A stretch of DNA of 64,000 nt from Parcubacteria group bacterium (lineage in GTDB: Bacteria; Patescibacteriota; Patescibacteriia; Buchananbacterales; UBA6539). Shown here piece after piece: positions 22,853 through 51,979 of this stretch. The notes below the pieces were generated by a model. The model had not been told where the DNA came from, did no database searches, and was given only the letters and a program-made list of their open reading frames with translations. The position numbers were made by a program, and so were the translations under genes. Each line of letters begins with the position of its first letter. Positions within the stretch are counted from its first letter, which is position 1. The stretch covers positions 149,607-213,606 of the forward strand of contig NYZP01000001.1 in NCBI GenBank assembly GCA_002687175.1, read 5' to 3'.

Positions 22853-23806
22853 TTATTTCTTTCCTAAAAATTTTCTAACCTTGGGAAGCTGTCCAGCACT
22901 GCCAAGTTTCTTATTTTTGTTAACAATATACTTAGCATATTCGGCCATAAAGATTTTGCCTGGACCACGTAAGTCAAAAACTTCTGGTTGATCACGAAAA
23001 ACTTCACGGTGAACTCTGGTCCAAACTAATCGACCATCGGTATCAATATTAACCTTGGTCACTCCTAACTTAGCGGCTTTTTTAAACTGATTTTCATCAA
23101 CTCCTTTAGCACCGCCTAACTTTCCTCCGGCGGCATTAATTCGCTTAACCTCATCCTGCGGTATAGAACTGGAGCCATGCATCACTAACGGAAATTTAGG
23201 TGCTAATTTTTGAATTCTTTTTAAAATATCAAAATGGATGGCCTGACTACCTGAAAACTTATAGGCTCCATGACTGGTACCAATGGCACAAGCCAAGCTG
23301 TCACAGCCAGTCTGGTTAATAAAATCTTTAGCCTCTTCCGGATCAGTCAAATGAGCATCCTTCTCATCAACGGCAATGTGCTCCTCCACTCCTCCCAATT
23401 GACCAAGCTCGGCTTCAACAGTAATTTTTTTGGCATGAGCGGCCTTTACTACCTTTTTAGTTATGGACACATTATTTTTAAAATCTTGATCTGAAGCATC
23501 TATCATCACCGAAGAGTAAAAACCACTTTTGATTGAGTCTAGGCAGCTTTCTAAATCTCCATGATCAAGATGAACGGCAAACACCGCCTTAGGAAAAATT
23601 TGTTCCGCCGATTTTATCATGCCTTCTAATAAAAGTTTATCAGTATAAGCTCTGGCACCTCTAGAGATTTGAATAATGAAAGGTGCTTGGCTGTCAATAT
23701 TACCACGGAATAATCCCATGATCTGTTCGGCATTGTTTATATTGTAAGCGCCAAGGGCATATTTACCATAAGCGTGTTGAAATAATTTTTTGGTTGAAAC
23801 AATCAT
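22853..23806 (-). CDS. fba: Class II fructose-bisphosphate aldolase
   Basis: YALGAYNINN...HLDHG...GSS..; 317 aa. Confidence 0.9.
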   Translation of the reverse strand: MIVSTKKLFQHAYGKYALGAYNINNAEQIMGLFRGNIDSQAPFIIQISRGARAYTDKLLLEGMIKSAEQIFPKAVFAVHLDHGDLESCLDSIKSGFYSSVMIDASDQDFKNNVSITKKVVKAAHAKKITVEAELGQLGGVEEHIAVDEKDAHLTDPEEAKDFINQTGCDSLACAIGTSHGAYKFSGSQAIHFDILKRIQKLAPKFPLVMHGSSSIPQDEVKRINAAGGKLGGAKGVDENQFKKAAKLGVTKVNIDTDGRLVWTRVHREVFRDQPEVFDLRGPGKIFMAEYAKYIVNKNKKLGSAGQLPKVRKFLGKK

Positions 23807-23814
23807 AATGTAAT

Positions 23815-24765
23815 TTAAATTTTATGATGAGTAGTGATATAACGGACAGTACCTGATTTTCCTCTCATTACCACTGAGTGGGTTATCAGATGATTCTCTT
23901 TATAGATTATGCCATCGATTAAAGGACCCCCCAAAATTCCAGTTGCCGTGAAGGTTAATTGATCACCTTGAGCCATGCTTTCAGCATTAAATAAATAGTT
24001 AATGTCTTTAATCTTGGCTTTAGTTAAACATTTTAAAATATCCTTTTCGTCCTCATCAGAACGTGGGTTAAACCGACAAATAATTTCACCGCCATAGATC
24101 TTCATTGGTACAGCAGCCAGAACCGCTTCAGTACTACCACCGACCCCCATTAATAAATCAATCCCTGAATCGGGCATACAAGTAGCAATCGCTCCAGCCA
24201 CATCACCATCAGTAATAAATTTTATCCTAGCACCAGCCTGTCTAATTTCCCCAACTAATTTTTTATGTCGAGGTCGATCCATAACCATTACGGTAATCTC
24301 GCTCACTTTTTTACCTAACGCTTTAGCAGTTTTTTTGATATTGTCTTTGACTGGAGCATCGAGCTCAATTACTTTAGCCGCTTGTGGCCCAGCGGCAATC
24401 TTATTCATATAAGTATCTGGGGCGTGTAAAATTTTGCCTTTAGCCCCGGTGACAATCATTGATTGGGCATTACTACGACCGTGAGCTACGCTGTCGGTTG
24501 CTTCAAGAGGATCAATTGCTAAATCCATTTTTGGGCCTTTACCAGCACCAACTTTTTCGCCGGTATACAATTTTGGGGCCTCATCTTTTTCACCTTCACC
24601 AATCACCACTTCACCTGCAAAATCAACTTGATTAAATCGATCACGCATTTCATCCACTGCCGCTTTGTCAGCCGCCTTAGGATCTTTTTTCCCCACCCAT
24701 TTAGCGGCGGCAATTGCGGCCGCTTCGGTCACTCGGACAAATTCTAAAGCTAGGTTACGGTCCAT
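23815..24765 (-). CDS. glpX: Class II fructose-1,6-bisphosphatase (GlpX)
   Basis: MDRNLALEFVRVTEAAAIAAAKWVGKKDPKAADKAAVDEMR matches the GlpX N-terminus. 316 aa. Confidence 0.85.
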   Translation of the reverse strand: MDRNLALEFVRVTEAAAIAAAKWVGKKDPKAADKAAVDEMRDRFNQVDFAGEVVIGEGEKDEAPKLYTGEKVGAGKGPKMDLAIDPLEATDSVAHGRSNAQSMIVTGAKGKILHAPDTYMNKIAAGPQAAKVIELDAPVKDNIKKTAKALGKKVSEITVMVMDRPRHKKLVGEIRQAGARIKFITDGDVAGAIATCMPDSGIDLLMGVGGSTEAVLAAVPMKIYGGEIICRFNPRSDEDEKDILKCLTKAKIKDINYLFNAESMAQGDQLTFTATGILGGPLIDGIIYKENHLITHSVVMRGKSGTVRYITTHHKI

Positions 24766-25213
24766 AAATTCATTAAATAATACTCGTTAATTATATCAAA
24801 AAACCGCCCATAAGGCGATTTTTCGTACCTCTGAAAGTTCGTTTTTTATGTCTTCATACTCTTGGTATCCCTTCGGGGAGCTACTTTTGTAACCAAAAGT
24901 AGCCAAAAGTTCCGGGGGCCTTTATTCGCCTTATGGGCGGTTTACCTATAGCTCTCTCGCCAGGGGCTCAGAACGGCCCCCGGACCCCCGCCCACAAGAA
25001 CATTACTGTGGTATTAAATCTATAGAGGCAAAATCATTAGCAAAAAACTAATAAATGGGGGTTTGGGGGCGGCGCCTTAGCGCCCCTATAGATACGGCAG
25101 AGGGTTAATCAACGTGATAGCGATTCGCCGCCCCCAAGAGTTTTCTGACCACTTTTGCGGCCAAAAGTGGTCACCGCCGTCAGGCAGAACAATACCACAC
25201 GGGTGACAAAAAT
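24766..25213. other. GC-rich, ORF-free, hairpin-dense block (candidate structured RNA or MITE-like element) of undetermined family; on the minus strand it forms the leader of glpX
   Basis: 18-bp perfect inverted repeat AAACCGCCCATAAGGCGA (24798-24815) with its complement at 24920-24937. 9-bp hairpins CTACTTTTG/CAAAAGTAG and CCACTTTTG/CAAAAGTGG. A UUCG tetraloop hairpin (cccTTCGggg). GGGGCGGCG/CGCCGCCCC long-range pair. CCCCCAAACCCCC on the minus strand. No ORF of 60 aa or more. Confidence 0.4.
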
Positions 25214-25699
25214 TTAAATCTGATCAGCAATAGCAATATCGTACTTTTCCGAAATAATCTGCTGAATTGTTTTGAGGTGCTGCTCACCAACTTCTTCAGT
25301 AATAGCGGTGGCAAAATATTCAGCTAATAGTGGATTACCATGACCTTCTAGAATTTCACCAATGCACTCACCACAAGGATGCCTGCCATCAACAATATCA
25401 ACTAAACAATGACAACTAGCTCCCTCACCATGGCCAGGAGTTTTTTCCAAACAGTAAGTACAAGGTTTCTCTAAACAACAAGCATAATCACCATGGGTCA
25501 TCATTTCTCCCATCATCGAATTCTTCATGGTAATAAAATGCTCTCGATTATGTTCCATATTACCAAAACTGATATCAGCCATCATATGATGTCGGCTACC
25601 GCTGAAACCACCAAAAAAACCAAAGCTAATAACAACTATTACCGCTAAAAGCAAAACCATACTAGAATAAAACGGAAATTTATTATTTAAGTTATTCAT
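25214..25699 (-). CDS. Cys/His/Met-rich secreted or membrane-anchored protein, putative metal binding; start probably MNNLNNK
   Basis: HHMMADISFGNMEHNREH and CCLEKPCTYCLEKTPGHGEGASCHC...CGEC. Confidence 0.35.
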   Translation of the reverse strand: MNNLNNKFPFYSSMVLLLAVIVVISFGFFGGFSGSRHHMMADISFGNMEHNREHFITMKNSMMGEMMTHGDYACCLEKPCTYCLEKTPGHGEGASCHCLVDIVDGRHPCGECIGEILEGHGNPLLAEYFATAITEEVGEQHLKTIQQIISEKYDIAIADQI

Positions 25700-25709
25700 G
25701 TTTTTGAGA

Positions 25710-26192
25710 TTAAAAATTAATTGAATTAGTAACTGCACCATCATGCAGGGCAAAGATCTTAAAATCTCCCCTCTTAATTCCTGGCATGCCTGATGAACCA
25801 GCCGGCATTCCCGGCAAAGCAACAACCTCTAAATCAGGGTTTTGCTCTCTAATCATGGTTACGGCATCCAAAGGAACATGACCTTCAATAGCCACGTCAT
25901 CCATTACCGTAGTATGACAACTTTGCATGTTGTGCGGGATATTATACTTATCTTTAATATCAGCAGTATCGTTAGTAGACACTACCGTGACATCATAACC
26001 ATTTTTCTTAAGATAAGAAATATAGTTAACGCAACAACCACATGACAGCGATTTATAGACAGTTACTTTTGGACCTGTACCGTTAGATATTGGATCGGTT
26101 GAATCACCAGAAAAGACTAGAGCAATAATAACCGCAATCATTGCACCCCCAATGAAACCATACATTAAATTTTTATTAAGAGTATTATTCAT
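25710..26192 (-). CDS. CopG-like CxCC protein (DUF411-like), copper-associated thioredoxin-like fold
   Basis: VYKSLSCGCCVNY...CHTTVMDDVAIEGHVP pattern. N-terminal TM helix. Confidence 0.45.
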   Translation of the reverse strand: MNNTLNKNLMYGFIGGAMIAVIIALVFSGDSTDPISNGTGPKVTVYKSLSCGCCVNYISYLKKNGYDVTVVSTNDTADIKDKYNIPHNMQSCHTTVMDDVAIEGHVPLDAVTMIREQNPDLEVVALPGMPAGSSGMPGIKRGDFKIFALHDGAVTNSINF

Positions 26193-26764: not shown

Positions 26765-27421
26765 TTACAAATCTCTGGGTTTGAAACCACCCATGGACGT
26801 TTGTGTCATACTCATGGTTGCGTCTCTGACACCTTGTGGTGTGGCCACTACAGTTACTGCGTGCTCGTCATCCGTTGGAAAACCCATGCCTTTGGCCAGT
26901 TCCTTGGCATCAATACCAATGCCGAAAGTCAAAAGTTCCCAACCCAGTGACTGTGCCTCGGCGGCGATGGCTTGCAGCGCTTCCGGCTGCAAAGATTTAT
27001 CCGATTCATTATCATCGCCGTCGCTGAAAACACCGATCACTACTCTGGTATCATCCCGCAATTCTGTCGGAATTCGCGACCGGTAAAAATTGAGAAGATC
27101 GTTAATGGTCTTATTGACCGTTTCCCAAAGTAGGGTCATGGCATGAGGACGATAGCCCTCAAGCATACCGAAGTCTTCCACTGGCATCAAGGGAATCTTC
27201 ACCTCATTGTCACTGGCGAAAGTGATGACCGCACAAAGATATTGTCGTCCATCATCACATTTCCTTAATGCTTCGTGATGGGCGTCCATCGCTTCCGGCG
27301 GTGTATTTCCATACTCCTCCATCGAGCCTGATTCATCAAGAATCGATACAGCAATAGTGGTCGCCTTCCCAGTGGTAATCTTCGTTTGAGCTGGTACTAT
27401 CGCAAACCCATTTTCGGTCAT
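26765..27421 (-). CDS. von Willebrand factor A (vWA) domain protein of atypical (higher) G+C
   Basis: MIDAS motif ILDESGSM (DxSGS), vWA fold spacing. Likely start MTENGF, preceded by AAAGGAGGG. GC-rich codons. Confidence 0.6.
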   Translation of the reverse strand: MTENGFAIVPAQTKITTGKATTIAVSILDESGSMEEYGNTPPEAMDAHHEALRKCDDGRQYLCAVITFASDNEVKIPLMPVEDFGMLEGYRPHAMTLLWETVNKTINDLLNFYRSRIPTELRDDTRVVIGVFSDGDDNESDKSLQPEALQAIAAEAQSLGWELLTFGIGIDAKELAKGMGFPTDDEHAVTVVATPQGVRDATMSMTQTSMGGFKPRDL

Positions 27422-27587
27422 AATCCAGCCCTCCTTTCTTGTTAGTGAAACCTCCATCAAGAAGTTGACATCAGCAAAATACTGAGCAACTGTTGATGTT
27501 ATACTAATTATTAAATTTTGTCAATACTAAAAACCGCCTTTCCTTGTTAATTCGCCACACCAGTGATTTAACAAGATAAACGGTTTA

Positions 27588-36072: not shown

Positions 36073-36476
36073 CATAAAAAATATAAAAAAAGAAGAACTA
36101 AGCTCCCAACTACGGTCTAGTCCACCCACATCGGCGTTTTTGGGAGGTTTTTGGGGTATAAATTCGGAGTGAAATAACGCAGTACGGTCGGGGTAAATGA
36201 GACAAATGAGACAGTATAAAAAGGAACAAAATATAAATCAAAAATGTAATACAACAAAAAGCCCCAAATAAGCGTAATTTGACAGTATTTAAAAAGTGGT
36301 AGATAATTAATACAACGGTAGCGATGTCCTCTTTTACGAAAGAGGATCAACATCAAAAGCCATTCTGATAAGTCAGAGAAATTTCTCGACTTTTTAGTTT
36401 GGCTTTTTTTCGTGGAGTTTTTTCTTCTCATTAATTAAGTCATCTAAAAAGACTAATTAATAACTTTTTCAAAGAT

Positions 36477-37802
36477 ATGAAAGAGAAAAAACTTAAGGTG
36501 GTGCAGGTATCCACCAACCAACTAAAACCTGCGACTTATAATCCAAGGAAATGGAATCAAAGTGCAATTGATCAGTTAACCGAAAGCGTTAAGCGATTCG
36601 GATTAGTTGATCCAATCATCTGTAATTCCTCTCCTAAACGCCATAACATTGTTATTGGCGGACATTTTCGTTTAAAGGTCGTCAAAGATTTAAAAATCAA
36701 AGAAGTTCCAGTTGTCTATTTAGACATCCCCGACATTAAAAAAGAAAAGGAACTTAACCTCCGTCTTAATAAAAATGTCGGGGAGTTTGATATGGATTTG
36801 TTAGCCAAATTTGATGAGAACTTCCTATCCGACCTTGGTTTCAACAGTGAAGATTTAGATGAGATATTTGAGATTGAAGATAATCCGGAAAAATTTGATC
36901 TCAAAAAAGAGCTAGAAAAACTAGACATCAAAAAAATTGAGATTAAAAAGCAAGATATTTGGAAACTTGGTAATTCAAAATTAATGTGTGGTGATAGCAC
37001 CATAGAAGCTGATGTGTTAAAGCTCATGGCTGGCGAAAAAGCGGTTATGTGCTTTACGGATCCGCCTTATATTTTAGATTATCTTCGTGGGAAAAAGAAA
37101 AATGGTAAGGTGACGGAAGGATTTGGCCTAAAACGAGATCGAAAGTATCTTGAAACTGATGTCCTGCCCGACAATTTCACTGAACTTTGGATGAATAGTA
37201 TTTCTAAAATTCAGAAAAAAGATTTCTCAATTATTATTTTTGAAAATCCTAAAAATCTCCGTACTATTTGGAACGAAATGGAAAAACACTGGAAGTATCG
37301 CAATACTATTGTTTGGCATTTACCAAATCGTGTTCAGGGATTTGCCGCAAAGTATAAATTCTTCAATAAGCACGACATCGCTCTTGTTGGCACCAAAGGC
37401 AAGACGCCAATAAATATTGAACCCGAAGATCCTTTATTTCAAGAAGAATATGAGAATGCATTATTTGCCACCTCGGGTACTCCTACATGGGAATCATATA
37501 AAAAAGGAAAGAAATATTGCCCAACTGATTTCATTGACTATAAAGCCAGCGATGAAAAAAGCTCCGGCCAAGGAATTATCTTTGGTACTAAGCCAATAGA
37601 AATATTAATTCCCTATATCAAAGTTCTCACTAAGAGAGATGATTTAATTGTGGAACCTTTCGGCGGAAGTGGATCAACTCTTATTGCGGCCACAAAAATG
37701 AAACGGAGATGCTATATCATGGAGAAATCCCCTGTCTATGCTGAGGTAATTAAAAAACGTTGGGAAAAACTAACTGGTCAAAAAGCAAGGAGGGTTAAAT
37801 AA
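36477..37802 (+). CDS. ParB-like nuclease domain fused to an N6-adenine/N4-cytosine DNA methyltransferase
   Basis: N-terminal ParB-like domain (..NQLKPATYNPRKW..FGLVDPIIC..IVIGGHFRLKV). MTase motif IV TDPPY and motif I VEPFGGSGST. Confidence 0.75.
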   Translation: MKEKKLKVVQVSTNQLKPATYNPRKWNQSAIDQLTESVKRFGLVDPIICNSSPKRHNIVIGGHFRLKVVKDLKIKEVPVVYLDIPDIKKEKELNLRLNKNVGEFDMDLLAKFDENFLSDLGFNSEDLDEIFEIEDNPEKFDLKKELEKLDIKKIEIKKQDIWKLGNSKLMCGDSTIEADVLKLMAGEKAVMCFTDPPYILDYLRGKKKNGKVTEGFGLKRDRKYLETDVLPDNFTELWMNSISKIQKKDFSIIIFENPKNLRTIWNEMEKHWKYRNTIVWHLPNRVQGFAAKYKFFNKHDIALVGTKGKTPINIEPEDPLFQEEYENALFATSGTPTWESYKKGKKYCPTDFIDYKASDEKSSGQGIIFGTKPIEILIPYIKVLTKRDDLIVEPFGGSGSTLIAATKMKRRCYIMEKSPVYAEVIKKRWEKLTGQKARRVK

Positions 37803-40890: not shown

Positions 40891-41546
40891 ATTATAACTA
40901 TAACCATGACATTAGCGGCAATGTCGACTGGAACTAAATTAACATACCCACTGAGCTTAGGGAAACGCACTACATCATTAGTGGAGTTTAACGCTTTAAT
41001 AAAGGCTCCTAAAGCAAGATAAAAGCCGCTAAAATTAATAATTTCACCAGTCCTGCTGTGCCCGGTTAAAATTGATGGTCTAAAAATTGTACTCGAAACT
41101 TTAGAATTTATGAGAATCTCTTCGGCCTTACTTTTATCTTCCTCATACTGGTTGCTAAAAGGCTCTTGATTTGGTTTATAAAGATACGCTGTACTAGCAT
41201 AGGATAATTGTATGTCGGAATTATTAATGTGCTTAATAAGATTCATCATCATTCTTTGATTAGAATCTTTGGCGTCATGAAAATGAACGATACCAGCGCA
41301 GTGAATAATTGCGCTGGCATTTTTTATCACAAAAGAGGGCAGCGGGTCTTTTACAAGGTCACAAAAGACAACTTCTTTAAAACTGGATAAATTATTAAAA
41401 CTAGTCTTTAACTTGCCTAAGCTCTCCTGAGAGCTTAACACGGGAACTACTCCATAGTTTTTAGATAGTAGCTTTCTTCCAATCTCCGCTCCAAGGTTGC
41501 CCGTCACTCCTGTAAGAATTATATTCATATCTGTATATTTTACCAA
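40845..41546 (-). CDS. NAD(P)-binding Rossmann-fold protein (short epimerase/SDR-like)
   Basis: ILTGVTGNLGAEIGRKL glycine-rich motif. Confidence 0.4.
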   Translation of the reverse strand: MVKYTDMNIILTGVTGNLGAEIGRKLLSKNYGVVPVLSSQESLGKLKTSFNNLSSFKEVVFCDLVKDPLPSFVIKNASAIIHCAGIVHFHDAKDSNQRMMMNLIKHINNSDIQLSYASTAYLYKPNQEPFSNQYEEDKSKAEEILINSKVSSTIFRPSILTGHSRTGEIINFSGFYLALGAFIKALNSTNDVVRFPKLSGYVNLVPVDIAANVMVIVIIWVVLLMFIMMLVGF

Positions 41547-41591
41547 AAAATCGCCTTATTGGCGACTTATCTGGCATTTTTAGATGTCGGG

Positions 41592-42497: not shown

Positions 42498-42522
42498 AAT
42501 TTTTACTAAAATAAGCCATCCG

Positions 42523-42594
42523 CTCCGAGGGCCGGATTCGAACCGGCAACCAATTGATTAACAGTCAACTGCTCTACCATTGAGCTACCTCGGA
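42523..42594 (-). tRNA. tRNA-Asn(GTT), copy A
   Basis: Minus strand reads TCCGAGGTAGCTCAATGGTAGAGCAGTTGACTGTTAATCAATTGGTTGCCGGTTCGAATCCGGCCCTCGGAG. Anticodon loop is CUGUUAA. Confidence 0.85.
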
Positions 42595-42683
42595 GCACAT
42601 GGCTCATTTTTTACTCTATTGCGCTATATTCTAATTTTAAAGTCTTTGACGGAAACCGGTCGGTCAGAAACGCTTCCGGTCTC

Positions 42684-42755
42684 CTCCGGGGGTCGGATTC
42701 GAACCGACAACCAATTGATTAACAGTCAACTGCTCTACCGTTGAGCTACCCCGGA
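42684..42755 (-). tRNA. tRNA-Asn(GTT), copy B (variant stems)
   Basis: Same fold with compensatory changes (CCCCGGA..GTCGG/CCGAC). Confidence 0.8.
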
Positions 42756-42845
42756 GCACATGGCTCATTTTTTTGCTCTACAAACTATATTTTAAATTTT
42801 CAAGCCCCTGACAGGAACCGGTCGCTTTGGAAAGCGTCCGATCTC

Positions 42846-42917
42846 CTCCGAGGGCCGGATTCGAACCGGCAACCAATTGATTAACAGTCAACTGCTCTAC
42901 CATTGAGCTACCTCGGA
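42846..42917 (-). tRNA. tRNA-Asn(GTT), copy C
   Basis: Identical to copy A. Confidence 0.85.
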
Positions 42918-42957
42918 ACTTAATTCTCCTTAATTACTTTTACCTTCTAAACCTTGA

Positions 42958-48119: not shown

Positions 48120-48469
48120 GCGGCGCGCCAACTTCGTTGGCACGAAATTCGGCGACGGCGGAAAGCGAGGGCGGGCAAAAATTCCTTCCCCCCCCCAACC
48201 CCCTTCCTTTTTGCCCGCCCGAGCGTTGGGGTGGGAAGCGGCTCGTCTCTGCGTCAGCAGAGAAGCAAAGCTCGCAAAAATTGTTTCCTTAATTAAAATT
48301 TGCGCGCGCCCATTAAAAGAAAAAGAAATTTTTGCGAGCTTTGCTGGCCGCCGTCAGGCGGCGAGCCGATGGGCGGGTTCACTCAGCGAAATCCGTAGGA
48401 TTTTGCTCAAACATTGTTCGAACTTCGTCCAAAAAACACCGCCACTATTAAAAATCTAAAAAATTATTT
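48120..48469. other. GC-rich, ORF-free, hairpin-dense block of undetermined family between convergent genes
   Basis: UUCG hairpin GCCAAC-ttcg-GTTGGC. Long stem GCGAGGGCGGGCAAAAA...TTTTTGCCCGCCCGAGCG enclosing a C9 run (..TTCCCCCCCCCAACCCCC..). CTCTGC-gtca-GCAGAG and GCCGCC-gtca-GGCGGC hairpins. A ~20-bp long-range pair GAAGCAAAGCTCGCAAAAATT / AATTTTTGCGAGCTTTGC. Shares CCGCCGTCAGGC and the CCCCCAA(A)CCCCC motif with block 24766-25213. Confidence 0.4.
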
Positions 48470-48520
48470 TTAATTAAAAAAATACCCGCTAGATCAATTC
48501 TAGCGGGTATTTAAAATTAA
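48470..48520. terminator. Bidirectional intrinsic terminator
   Basis: ACCCGCTAG-atcaattc-CTAGCGGGT flanked by A-run and T-run. Confidence 0.55.
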
Positions 48521-51168: not shown

Positions 51169-51293
51169 GGGCTTGTAGCTCAGGGGTAGAGCGTCTGAGA
51201 CCAACATTTTAATCAATCAGTGAGGGTACCCGATCTGTGCGATGATGTTGGAAAATCAGAAAGTCAGGGGTTCAAATCCCTTCAGGCCCACCA
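51169..51293 (+). tRNA. tRNA (Ile-like acceptor and T-arm) with a ~50-nt intervening sequence in the anticodon loop; anticodon unresolved
   Basis: GGGCTTG-TA-GCTCAGGGGTAGAGC-G-TCTGA-[57 nt: GACCAACAT...ATGTTGGAAAA]-TCAGA-AAGTC-AGGGGTTCAAATCCCTT-CAGGCCC-A-CCA. The insert has a 7-bp stem CCAACAT/ATGTTGG. Followed by TTTTTT. Confidence 0.55.
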
Positions 51294-51310: not shown

Positions 51311-51390
51311 GCTGGGGTAGCTCAGTGGTAGAGCTGTTGACTTCTTCGGATAGTTGATGGTCGGGGGTTCAAATCCCTCCTCCAGCTCCA
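51311..51390 (+). tRNA. Atypical tRNA, candidate tRNA-Arg(UCG) with an apparently extended (8-bp, G:U-rich) anticodon stem
   Basis: GCTGGGG-TA-GCTC-AGTGGTA-GAGC, anticodon loop CUUCGGA, GGGGG-TTCAAAT-CCCTC T-arm, CTCCAGC-T-CCA. There are 28 nt between the D and T stems where 22-23 are expected. Direct repeat GTTGA...GTTGA. Confidence 0.45.
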
Positions 51391-51394
51391 ATTA

Positions 51395-51953
51395 CTTTTG
51401 ATCCGGTCCCCGCTGAAAAGTGGCGATACGTCTATTTGACAGAACCGAGGGGTTCTCCAAACAGAGAAGACAGGGTAATGTCACCGGATCTTGGAACGGA
51501 TGTCCTCGGACATAGTGTTCTCCCCCTATCTAGGGCGAACTAATGCGCAAGCATTATTACTTCAGACTTTGGTCTGACCGTTCCGCCAATGTTTCAACTT
51601 TGTCTCGAATTCGCAAGAGGCGAGACGAGTTGACCCCGGACACTCAGACTGCACCCCCAGCCTGAGTGTCCACTCTACATTTTTTCCAGCCTGAATCCCT
51701 TGCGGCCAGGCTGTCACCTGGGGTCACCTGGATAACCCGAGTCTGGGTGACCCCTCTATTACAATGTCCCGCGCTCAAGCGCTTGGCATAGGCACATCTT
51801 TATCTTCAAAAGCCCAAACAAACTCGACGAGACCATGATTTGGTGCAACCCTTCAAAAGAGGATCCCGGGATTCTCTGGCGCTAGGCGTTCAATCCTTTC
51901 ATGTCTTTCGAAAAAAAATCGCTCTTAGCTGTGAGCGGCGTAACGGGCTCCTA
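51395..51953 (+). other. GC-rich, ORF-free, hairpin-dense block ending in a plus-strand terminator; candidate structured RNA of undetermined family
   Basis: Perfect 10-bp hairpin GGACACTCAG-actgcacccccagc-CTGAGTGTCC, GGGTCACC...GGTGACCC, GTCTCG-aattcgcaagag-GCGAGAC, GAACC-gagg-GGTTC. No RNase P (GGAAAGTCCGGGC / ACAGAA..GCTTA in the right order), tmRNA or SRP (GGAAGGAAGCAGC) hallmark was found by eye. Confidence 0.4.
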
Positions 51954-51979
51954 GAAGGTGATGTGCCTTCTTTTTTTAC
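51954..51979 (+). terminator. Intrinsic terminator
   Basis: AGAAGG-tgatgtg-CCTTCT followed by TTTTTT. Overlaps the ligA stop on the opposite strand. Confidence 0.5.

What the first reader, a model, noticed from the sequence alone, without database searches (positions are those of the whole stretch)
24766..25213. GC-rich structured block forming the leader of glpX-fba, with an 18-bp perfect long-range inverted repeat
This 450-bp stretch has no ORFs and markedly higher G+C. It contains an 18-bp perfect inverted repeat spanning ~100 nt, several perfect 9-bp hairpins, UUCG and GUCA tetraloop hairpins and G/C runs. On the minus strand the distal repeat copy is followed by a U-tract about 60 nt upstream of the glpX ATG. 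That suggests a riboswitch or attenuator-type leader, or else an inserted MITE or structured sRNA. No RNase P, tmRNA or SRP hallmark was found by eye.
Basis: seen in the sequence. Interest (0 to 1): 0.65.

Follow-up and report, generated by a model that had tools for sequence, protein, structure and literature searches.

The report
Orphan GC-rich palindromic noncoding block
The 450-bp gap upstream of glpX is a real, hairpin-dense noncoding element, but it is not a glpX leader: it is a one-off quasi-palindromic tail behind the neighbouring metal-handling genes, and it ends in a terminator hairpin that many Parcubacteria reuse almost letter for letter.

Summary
Positions 24766-25213 have no ORF above 36 aa and 47% GC against 36% for the window. 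They contain a perfect 18-bp inverted repeat and perfect 10- and 12-bp hairpins.

The "glpX-fba leader or riboswitch" reading is not supported:
- No Rfam family matches on either strand, and ARAGORN finds no tmRNA.
- glpX relatives at 65-72% identity have short upstream gaps without the block.
- glpX has its own extended -10 promoter (TGATATAAT), downstream of the U-tract.

The glpX-proximal repeat arm is an intrinsic terminator. The same 18-mer occurs in 76 metagenomic stretches, at least two of them traceable to Parcubacteria. It usually sits as terminator, T-tract, TGnTAnnnT, then the ATG of the next gene. The second arm is an inverted copy of that core only.

The body of the block (24862-25192) is a 330-bp quasi-palindrome. 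Its two inverted arms are 63% identical and keep one fold, with 9 pairs maintained by changes on both sides.

My best reading (about 0.4) is a lineage-specific structured 3' tail or insulator of the DUF411-ORF3 operon on the minus strand. A neutral or selfish DNA palindrome is the main rival. No homologue was found, so no cross-species covariation test was possible. Interest is moderate.

The parts
24797..24825 (-). Intrinsic terminator: CGAAAAAUCGCCU-UAU-GGGCGGUUUUUUG. It contains IR arm 1 (24801-24818) and the U-tract (24798-24803).
   Evidence: Folds to -15.6 kcal/mol as a 13-bp hairpin. It has a U.G wobble on the minus strand, which would be a C.A mismatch on the plus strand. The nhmmer profile of the metagenomic module hits 24828-24787(-) at E 2e-12.
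24790..24798 (-). Extended -10 promoter of glpX (TGATATAAT), 24 nt upstream of the ATG at 24765.
   Evidence: Found. All 6 perfect TGNTATAAT sites on the minus strand of the window lie just upstream of minus-strand gene starts, and there are none on the plus strand.
24926..24943 (+). IR arm 2: an inverted copy of the 18-nt terminator core, inside the left arm of the palindrome.
   Evidence: Located. The nhmmer profile matches only the 18 nt and not the module's flanks (E 1.5e-4).
24862..24989 (+). Left arm of the quasi-palindrome: TGGTAT, cUUCGg hairpin 24868-24879, hairpin A 24880-24903, and the GC clamp 24911-24920/24975-24984 enclosing arm 2.
   Evidence: The covariance model built on the right arm hits 24875-24984(+) at 46 bits, E 1e-6 in 590 kb. 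The local alignment is 63% identical over 141 columns, scoring 53 against shuffles of 24-25 +/- 4.3.
24990..25056 (.). A/U-rich central spacer with a small hairpin (AUUAG...CUAAU) and a second TGTGGTATT.
25057..25192 (-). Right arm of the quasi-palindrome: TGGTATTGT, hairpin B 25146-25173, and the GC clamp 25063-25074/25126-25137 enclosing a diverged counterpart of the terminator core.
   Evidence: Of 38 model pairs, 95.9% of cells are paired in both arms and 9 pairs are changed on both sides. None of 500 shuffles reaches this, and slid controls give at most 3.
25189..25197 (-). Weak extended -10-like site (TGGTATTGT) just after the ORF3 stop codon; a possible start of an independent transcript.
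   Evidence: It is the only other TG.TA...T site on either strand inside the 448-nt gap. One more, TGATATTGT at 25400(-), lies inside ORF3. It has no -35 partner.
25214..25699 (-). ORF3 (161 aa, Cys/His-rich, N-terminal hydrophobic segment). With DUF411 (25710-26192) it forms the upstream transcription unit. No U-tract terminator is seen between ORF3 and the block.
   Evidence: In relatives the DUF411-ORF3 pair sits in metal-resistance clusters without the block.
23815..24765 (-). glpX (class II fructose-1,6-bisphosphatase), followed by fba (22853-23806).
   Evidence: Pfam E-values 5e-121 and 8e-79.

Best explanation
The block is not a glpX leader. It is a lineage-specific noncoding tail on the minus strand. 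It begins right after the stop codon of the DUF411-ORF3 metal-handling gene pair and ends at an intrinsic terminator (24797-24825). The terminator's U-tract runs directly into glpX's own extended -10 promoter.

The body (24862-25192) is a 330-bp quasi-palindrome. Its two diverged inverted arms each keep the same fold: a 10-12-bp hairpin, an A-rich linker, and a 10-12-bp GC clamp closing an insert of about 50 nt.

The 'perfect 18-bp inverted repeat' has two parts. One is the terminator core, a hairpin reused almost verbatim at gene junctions in Parcubacteria-like contigs. The other is an inverted copy of that core inside the left arm.

Inferred mechanism (not shown): transcription from the upstream operon runs through the block and stops at the terminator. 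The stack of GC-rich helices insulates glpX-fba from read-through and gives the upstream mRNA an exonuclease-resistant 3' end. This is how REP/BIME/ERIC-type transcribed palindromes work in other bacteria.

The inverted copy can also pair with the whole terminator over 18 bp. The two folds are nearly isoenergetic, so a termination/read-through toggle is possible, but it is not required by the data.
For: Boundaries and strand:
- The terminator carries a U.G wobble and a U6 tract only on the minus strand.
- No U-tract terminator is seen between ORF3 and the block, and no convincing promoter lies inside the gap.
- Each arm and the spacer fold somewhat better on the minus strand. The whole block gives -167.8 against -157.9 kcal/mol.

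glpX has its own promoter:
- TGATATAAT lies downstream of the U-tract. All 6 such sites on the minus strand of the window are promoter-positioned.
- glpX relatives have promoters within about 45 nt of the ATG.

The terminator is a generic module:
- The metagenome scan found 76 stretches with 84 matches, 83 of them with at least 30 nt of downstream sequence. Of those 83, 73 are followed by a T-run, 54 by T-run + TGnTAnnnT, and 45 of these have an ATG within 30 nt.
- A variant of the module is in this window at 41527-41575.

Quasi-palindrome with a conserved fold.

Composition: GC is about 0.50 in a 0.36 genome. Stability per nucleotide equals that of two other GC-rich noncoding blocks, which also lie just upstream of terminators.
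Against: - There is no transcript evidence.
- No homologue turned up anywhere searched: Rfam, phages, plasmids, viral contigs, about 0.6 Mb of Parcubacteria-like loci, and 10 kb more of the same genome. So there is no cross-species covariation.
- The six contigs that carry the locus are 100% identical over the part of the block each one covers, so they give no population signal.
- The stems are perfect, with no wobbles in the long ones. That fits recent or DNA-level origin, such as template switching or gene conversion, as well as it fits RNA selection.
- The arm-to-arm pair counts come from an alignment fitted to a structure derived from one arm.
- One 14-bp helix with two G.U pairs forms only on the plus strand.
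- The fold z-score is not an outlier against the genome background.
Confidence: 0.4

Rival explanations
1. A neutral or selfish DNA palindrome. The block is a decayed foldback or MITE-like insertion, or a pile-up of terminator-hairpin modules left by rearrangement at a synteny break. It has no function as RNA. Its stems are kept perfect by replication template switching or gene conversion.
For: - The two inverted arms and the perfect 10-18-bp stems lack wobbles.
- The 18-nt identity stops exactly at the core, while the rest of the arms is 63% identical. That suggests local conversion from the adjacent terminator.
- The block sits where two gene groups meet that are unlinked in relatives.
- Both strands fold almost equally well.
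Against: - No second copy appears in 64 kb plus 10 kb of the genome or in any collection searched.
- No target-site duplication was seen at the arm ends or the IR ends, by inspection.
- A streamlined AT-rich genome would be expected to erode or delete a useless 50% GC block.
- Nine compensated pairs between the arms argue for constraint on the fold.
Confidence: 0.3
2. An independent small RNA gene, or two convergent paralogous ones. A transcript of about 385 nt would start at the weak TGGTATTGT (25197, minus strand) and end at the terminator. Alternatively, each arm is transcribed from its own TGGTAT motif towards the centre.
For: - Both arms begin with TGGTAT.
- The block has the GC-rich, structured, ORF-free profile typical of ncRNA genes in AT-rich genomes.
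- The fold is conserved between the arms.
Against: - The -10 hexamers are poor (TATTGT, TATCCC) and have no -35 partner.
- There is no terminator for a plus-strand arm transcript.
- The left arm folds better as minus-strand RNA than in its own 'sense' (-52.7 against -47.7 kcal/mol).
- There are no homologues.
Confidence: 0.15
3. A read-through attenuator or riboswitch for glpX-fba. The upstream copy (24926-24943) would pair with the terminator and let transcription from the upstream operon continue into glpX. A ligand or protein bound to the structured body would control this.
For: Terminator-forced and 18-bp-duplex-forced folds are nearly isoenergetic: -166.1 against -163.2 kcal/mol for the full RNA, and -80.9 against -84.7 for the 3' half. 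The upstream copy is sequestered by a 9-10-bp GC clamp in the terminator-forming fold.
Against: - glpX has its own promoter after the terminator.
- The complementarity covers the whole hairpin, including its loop. That is what an inverted DNA copy gives, not what antiterminators look like.
- No relative has the block, and no known aptamer matches.
- None of the 76 other loci carrying this terminator has an inverted copy within 400 nt.
Confidence: 0.1
4. An invertible DNA switch (inverton). The perfect 18-bp inverted repeats would flank a 107-bp segment that a site-specific recombinase flips, next to the glpX promoter.
For: Perfect inverted repeats of inverton-like length and spacing lie directly upstream of a promoter.
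Against: - No recombinase gene was seen among the neighbouring genes examined.
- All six independent assemblies show a single orientation.
- The -10 element lies outside the repeats.
- The repeat is simply a common terminator hairpin.
Confidence: 0.03

Closest known systems
Intrinsic (Rho-independent) terminator abutting the next gene's extended -10 promoter
   Same: 24797-24825 has a GC stem and a U6 tract. It is followed at once by TGATATAAT and a short leader. The same arrangement occurs at 41527-41575 and about 16955 in this window and in dozens of metagenomic loci.
   Different: Terminators are normally not conserved in sequence. This 18-mer is identical across contigs traceable to different Parcubacteria (DG_74_1 and a Nealsonbacteria-like one) and recurs several times per contig.
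REP/BIME, REPIN and ERIC-type transcribed intergenic palindromes (enterobacteria, pseudomonads)
   Same: It is a GC-rich imperfect palindrome in a transcribed gap at the 3' end of an operon. Copies lie in opposite orientation. The expected roles are termination, insulation and 3' mRNA protection.
   Different: Those families have tens to hundreds of copies per genome, often alongside a RAYT transposase. The 330-bp body here is single-copy as far as could be searched, it is much longer than a REPIN, and no RAYT was seen.
MITEs with promoter/terminator activity (e.g. Neisseria Correia elements)
   Same: It has inverted arms, no ORF and an intergenic position, with hairpins that can terminate or be processed.
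   Different: There is no target-site duplication and no second copy. The arms are only 63% identical and about 130 bp long.
Riboswitch / attenuator leaders
   Same: Mutually exclusive terminator and long-range pairings exist with similar energies.
   Different: The block lies upstream of the promoter of the gene it was proposed to control. It has no conserved aptamer and no Rfam hit, and it is absent from homologous loci.
Large orphan structured ncRNAs found as GC-rich gaps in AT-rich genomes (OLE, GOLLD, ROOL, raiA class)
   Same: It is a long GC-rich ORF-free gap with very stable predicted structure in an AT-rich genome.
   Different: It matches none of those Rfam models. It has no homologues or covariation. 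Its architecture is an inverted duplication rather than an ornate multi-junction fold.

Membership tests
Riboswitch / attenuator leader of glpX-fba | Lies between the regulated gene's promoter and its start codon | tested here: not met
   TGATATAAT (24790-24798) lies downstream of the terminator, 24 nt from the ATG. All 6 such sites on the minus strand of the window are promoter-positioned.
Riboswitch / attenuator leader of glpX-fba | Conserved sensor domain upstream of orthologous genes | tested here: not met
   glpX relatives at 65-72% identity have short gaps (142 nt in L194/L197) or tightly packed upstream genes, and no block.
Riboswitch / attenuator leader of glpX-fba | Match to a described aptamer or leader family | tested here: not met
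   Rfam 15 at gathering score and at E<=10, on both strands, gave only chance hits to the terminator hairpin.
Riboswitch / attenuator leader of glpX-fba | Mutually exclusive terminator and antiterminator pairings | tested here: met
   Constrained folds give -166.1 (terminator) against -163.2 kcal/mol (18-bp duplex).
Intrinsic terminator | GC-rich stem-loop followed directly by a U-tract on the transcribed strand | tested here: met
   A 13-bp hairpin at -15.6 kcal/mol followed by U6 on the minus strand. The simple pattern scanner missed it.
Parcubacteria terminator-promoter hairpin module (defined here) | TCGCCTTATGGGCGGTTT core, then a T-run and TGnTAnnnT, then a nearby ATG | tested here: met
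   The copy at 24787-24828(-) hits the profile at E 2e-12. The copy at 24926-24943 matches the core only.
MITE / foldback transposable element | Terminal inverted repeats | tested here: met
   Arms 24862-24989 and 25057-25192 are 63% identical. The 18-bp perfect IR is at 24801-24943.
MITE / foldback transposable element | Target-site duplication at the ends | tested here: not met
   No direct repeat flanks either the arm ends or the 18-bp IR ends (sequence).
MITE / foldback transposable element | Multiple dispersed copies | tested here: inconclusive
   No second copy was found in 64 kb + 10 kb of this genome, in about 0.6 Mb of related loci, or in phage, plasmid and viral collections. The rest of the genome could not be searched.
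REP/BIME/REPIN | Short GC-rich palindromes, extragenic, high copy number, often paired in inverted orientation | tested here: inconclusive
   The 18-mer hairpin is high-copy in some Parcubacteria-like contigs (4 gaps in L143, 4 copies in L191), but always in gene orientation and never as inverted pairs. This window holds only 2 exact copies and 1 variant.
Housekeeping RNAs (RNase P RNA, tmRNA, SRP RNA, 6S RNA) and group I/II introns | Match to the family covariance model, or ARAGORN for tmRNA | tested here: not met
   Rfam found nothing at E<=10, and ARAGORN found no tmRNA. By eye, the CR-I/CR-V motifs of RNase P and a T-arm/CCA end are absent.
Functional structured RNA in general | Covariation across homologues | not testable with these tools
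   No homologue was found. The nearest glpX and ORF3 relatives are 72% and 66% identical, and the six contigs of the same population are 100% identical. Only the two internal arms could be compared.

The most novel reading that the evidence does not exclude
The 18-mer would belong to an undescribed, nearly sequence-invariant terminator-promoter 'punctuation' element of Parcubacteria. It is often paired with a tRNA-3'-half-like motif, AAACAGGTTCTAACATCGTCC. It would be either mobile or read by a dedicated factor. On this reading, the block is a compound derivative in which an inverted copy converts a constitutive terminator into a bistable termination/read-through switch, embedded in a new large structured RNA of marine Parcubacteria.
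Probability: 0.15. Interest if true: 0.65.

Novelty: new member of a known kind. Interest (0 to 1): 0.4.

Why it matters
For this locus, the result removes a tempting but unsupported "sugar-phosphate riboswitch" reading of glpX-fba. It replaces it with a testable transcription-unit map: operon, structured tail, terminator, promoter, glpX.

More broadly, it gives a first look at how these tiny uncultured bacteria punctuate their genomes:
- Promoters are of the extended -10 type with very short leaders.
- Terminator hairpins are conserved in sequence across contigs from different Parcubacteria.
- At least three large GC-rich structured noncoding blocks lie within 64 kb, and none of them matches Rfam.

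If any of these blocks is a functional RNA, it would be a class invisible to current annotation.

Tried and rejected
Known RNA families:
- Rfam at gathering score and at E<=10 on the block gave only chance matches to the terminator hairpin: RNAI, Phe leader, STnc420.
- ARAGORN found no tmRNA or tRNA. The apparent tag-like reading AKSLAKN** on the plus strand has no tRNA-like ends.
- RNase P, SRP, 6S, group I/II intron, retron, TIGR array and omega-RNA were considered. None is supported: motifs are missing, there are no tandem repeats, and no partner protein is nearby.

Coding potential:
- Every one of the six frames has 6-10 stop codons, and nothing looks protein-like.
- The 36- and 29-codon ORFs ending in ALWAV are artefacts of reading through the two repeat arms.

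Internal direct duplication: not significant.

Decayed extra copies of the terminator module at 24988 and 25128: not supported by the profile search.

Similarity searches, all negative beyond the 18-mer and its promoter flank:
- within the window
- phages and plasmids
- viral contigs, 4 patterns
- 80 glpX loci
- 76 hairpin loci
- covariance model of one arm over 590 kb
- 10 kb beyond the left end of the window. Extension to the right failed.

Literature: neither the hairpin sequence nor a matching Parcubacteria repeat was found.

Strand assignment from G.U pairs is ambiguous. Four helices favour the minus strand and one 14-bp helix favours the plus strand.

Full report
OBSERVATION. The gap 24766-25213 lies between two minus-strand genes. 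On one side is glpX (23815-24765; Pfam FBPase_glpX, E 5e-121), followed by fba. On the other is a 161-aa Cys/His-rich ORF (25214-25699) that follows DUF411 by 10 nt.

Nothing longer than 36 codons is open inside the gap. GC is 0.47, peaking at 0.52, against 0.363 for the window. The perfect 18-bp inverted repeat (24801-24818 / 24926-24943, 107 nt apart), the perfect 10- and 12-bp hairpins and three perfect 9-12-bp long-range stems are all present. The 18-mer is far beyond chance. Two of the window's roughly nine perfect hairpins of 9 bp or more fall in this 0.7% of the sequence.

Both strands fold well below shuffled controls, with z -5.9 and -6.8. A scan of the whole window tempers this. Ordinary 300-nt windows average z -0.9 with sd 1.65, and some coding windows reach -6. 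One detail needs correcting: the U-tract is about 32 nt, not about 60 nt, from the glpX ATG.

ORGANISM AND RELATIVES. The glpX protein is found, residue for residue, on contigs of a marine 'Parcubacteria group' MAG (GCA_002434675.1) and on several ocean assemblies. The six contigs retrieved are 100% identical to the window over the part of the block each one covers, so they carry no variation.

The next-closest glpX in 5.8 billion proteins is only 72% identical, and the next ORF3 is 64-66%. In those relatives glpX-fba is preceded by a tightly packed upstream gene or by a 142-nt divergent gap. In L002-L004 a TTGACA-17-TAAATT promoter lies within about 45 nt of the ATG. The DUF411-ORF3 pair sits in metal-resistance clusters (CsoR-like repressor, P-type ATPase) and is followed directly by another gene. 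So the block belongs to neither flanking unit in any relative. It lies at a junction of two gene groups that are unlinked elsewhere.

NOT A KNOWN RNA. Rfam 15 finds nothing at gathering score. At E<=10 it finds only chance matches to the U-tract hairpin. ARAGORN finds no tmRNA. Phage, plasmid and viral-contig searches are empty.

THE GLPX-PROXIMAL REPEAT ARM IS A TERMINATOR, AND GLPX HAS ITS OWN PROMOTER. On the minus strand, 24825-24797 reads CGAAAAAUCGCCUUAUGGGCGGUUUUUUG. This is a 13-bp hairpin (-15.6 kcal/mol) with a U.G wobble that would be a C.A mismatch on the other strand, followed by U6. The last U of the tract and the following bases form TGATATAAT, 24 nt before the ATG. Perfect TGNTATAAT occurs six times on the minus strand of the window and never on the plus strand. 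All six sites sit immediately upstream of minus-strand gene starts, several of them 8-11 nt from the ATG. The block therefore lies upstream of the glpX promoter, not inside its leader.

THE 18-MER IS A WIDESPREAD MODULE. The single metagenome scan with the 18-mer returned 76 stretches holding 84 matches. Of the 83 matches with enough downstream sequence:
- 73 are followed by a T-run;
- 54 are followed by a T-run and then TGnTAnnnT (most often TGGTAGAAT);
- 45 of those 54 have an ATG within 30 nt.

Upstream of the hairpin there is a gene end, a tRNA 3' end, or a tRNA-3'-half-like motif. The contigs are mostly low in GC (about 0.3-0.4). Two could be traced: one to Parcubacteria bacterium DG_74_1 and one to a Nealsonbacteria-like genome. 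Some contigs carry the hairpin in several successive gaps (L143, L191).

A profile of the module hits the glpX-proximal copy, flanks and promoter included, at E 2e-12. It also finds a variant in canonical position at 41527-41575. At 24926-24943 it matches only the bare 18 nt. Only 24766-24831 of the block is shared with these loci. None of them has an inverted copy within 400 nt. The 'long-range inverted repeat' is therefore a generic terminator plus one inverted copy of its core.

THE BODY IS A QUASI-PALINDROME. A covariance model was built from the right-hand domain (minus strand 25176-25062: hairpin B plus the 12-bp GC clamp). Besides itself, it found the plus strand at 24875-24984, at 46 bits and E about 1e-6 in 590 kb.

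Direct alignment gives left arm 24862-24989 (plus) against right arm 25192-25057 (minus). Identity is 63% over 141 columns. The score is 53, against shuffles of 24-25 +/- 4.3 with maxima of 41-48. The arms are separated by a 67-nt A/U-rich spacer.

On the model's 38 pairs, 95.9% of cells pair in both arms. Nine pairs differ on both sides while staying paired. None of 500 shuffles reaches this, and slid controls give at most 3. The caveat is that the alignment is fitted to a structure derived from one arm. The left arm holds the inverted 18-mer. The right arm holds a diverged counterpart, AAUCGCUAUCACGUUGAUU. The exact 18/18 identity inside arms that are otherwise 63% identical points to recent homogenisation with the adjacent terminator.

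STRAND AND TRANSCRIPTION UNIT (INFERRED). No U-tract terminator separates ORF3 from the block. The simple scanner found none in 24500-25500, though it also missed the terminator at 24797-24825. Inside the gap the only promoter-like site besides glpX's is a weak TGGTATTGT at 25197. The only clear terminator faces the minus direction. Each arm, the spacer and the whole block fold somewhat better as minus-strand RNA. Wobble evidence is mixed. I therefore read the block as the 3' tail of the DUF411-ORF3 transcript, or possibly a separate RNA of about 385 nt.

SWITCH OR NOT. Forcing the terminator, or instead the 18-bp duplex between the two copies, gives almost the same energy: -166.1 against -163.2 kcal/mol for the full RNA, with the order reversed for the 3' half. 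A read-through toggle is thus physically possible. Three points argue against a designed switch. The complementarity includes the loop. No other locus with this terminator has such a partner. And glpX does not depend on read-through.

VERDICT. The feature is real and unusual in anatomy, but the leader/riboswitch interpretation is not supported.
- Most likely (about 0.4), it works like REP/BIME/ERIC-type transcribed palindromes: a structured 3' tail that ends and insulates the upstream operon.
- A neutral or selfish DNA palindrome is nearly as plausible (about 0.3).
- An independent sRNA (0.15), an attenuator (0.1) and an inverton (0.03) remain.

Membership in any named family fails or cannot be tested, and no homologue exists for covariation. 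The window holds two further large GC-rich structured blocks that also lack Rfam matches, and the terminator module is widespread and apparently undescribed. These two points are the more interesting by-products.

Noticed in passing
L118-L193 (metagenome loci), e.g. L143:650-3200, L191: A nearly invariant hairpin, TCGCCTTATGGGCGGTTT, followed by a T-run and TGGTAGAAT and then a near-leaderless ATG, recurs at gene junctions in low-GC contigs from many metagenomes. Two of the contigs trace to Parcubacteria bacterium DG_74_1 and a Nealsonbacteria-like genome. In L143 it fills four consecutive gaps. Related hairpins keep the 3' half GGCGGT. No Rfam family matches (weak DUF3800-IX similarity, E 0.5), and no paper holding the sequence was found.
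   Followed up: partly
L118-L193; weak match in window 48416-48450 (+): The motif AAACAGGTTCTAACATCGTCC occurs about 60 times in 0.4 Mb of those loci, often just upstream of the hairpin. Its profile also weakly matches the T-arm/acceptor 3' ends of this window's two tRNA-Ser genes (E 0.13 and 7.8), so it resembles a tRNA 3' half. In one subtype it forms a small stem-loop (ACAGGU...ACCUGU) with compensated inner pairs.
   Followed up: partly
window 51388-51975 (+): A second GC-rich (0.50) ORF-free block of about 590 nt lies directly after two tRNA genes and ends in a terminator. Fold z is -7.8. It has no Rfam hit at E<=10, is not a quasi-palindrome, and shows no similarity to block 1 or to any fetched locus.
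   Followed up: partly
window 48120-48475 (+), terminator 48480-48512: A third GC-rich structured noncoding block (z -7.7) follows a 476-aa gene. It contains a 57-nt inverted repeat (48239-48296 / 48313-48368), C-runs and a tRNA-3'-like motif. It shares the 12-mer CCGCCGTCAGGC with block 1. There is no Rfam hit.
   Followed up: partly
window 51169-51290 (+) and 51311-51390 (+): The Rfam tRNA model spans 122 nt, with about 57 nt in place of the 7-nt anticodon loop. The insert is too short for a group I intron, and ARAGORN does not call the gene. The neighbouring tRNA-Lys(CTT) also has an enlarged anticodon-loop region.
   Followed up: no
window 42522-42918 (-): Three tandem tRNA-Asn(GTT) genes lie at spacings of about 160 nt. 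That is unusual redundancy for what is presumably a very small genome.
   Followed up: no
window 41527-41575 (-): A variant of the terminator-promoter module sits in canonical position: GTCGCCAATAAGGCGA-TTTTTTGGTAAAAT, then 8 nt, then ATG.
   Followed up: yes
window 1861, 5872, 14708, 16955, 17577, 24798 (-): Perfect extended -10 motifs (TGNTATAAT) occur only on the gene-bearing strand and always just upstream of a start codon. Two are 8-11 nt from the ATG, which suggests many leaderless or near-leaderless mRNAs.
   Followed up: partly
window 26765-27460 (-): This GC-rich (0.49) stretch is a real gene. It encodes a 231-aa VWA-like protein with a DxSxS (MIDAS) motif, just under the Pfam threshold. 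It is not another noncoding block.
   Followed up: yes
window 36314-36613: A window with 35% GC has an unusually low fold energy on both strands (z -5.5 to -6.5).
   Followed up: no
L134:818-1045 (-): A group I intron (Rfam, 67.6 bits) lies upstream of a tRNA-like 3' end ...CCGGGGGAGCCA, which is followed by the conserved hairpin. This may be an intron-bearing tRNA of the kind reported for Patescibacteria (PMC13011429).
   Followed up: no
L198:13870-14530 (same genome, about 4 kb beyond the left end of the window): A 660-nt gap holds a small SEC-C-motif-like Cys-rich ORF (MPHLGDDCTCGSGKPYGECCG...), further GC-rich noncoding sequence and a terminator. There is no Rfam hit at E<=0.01.
   Followed up: no
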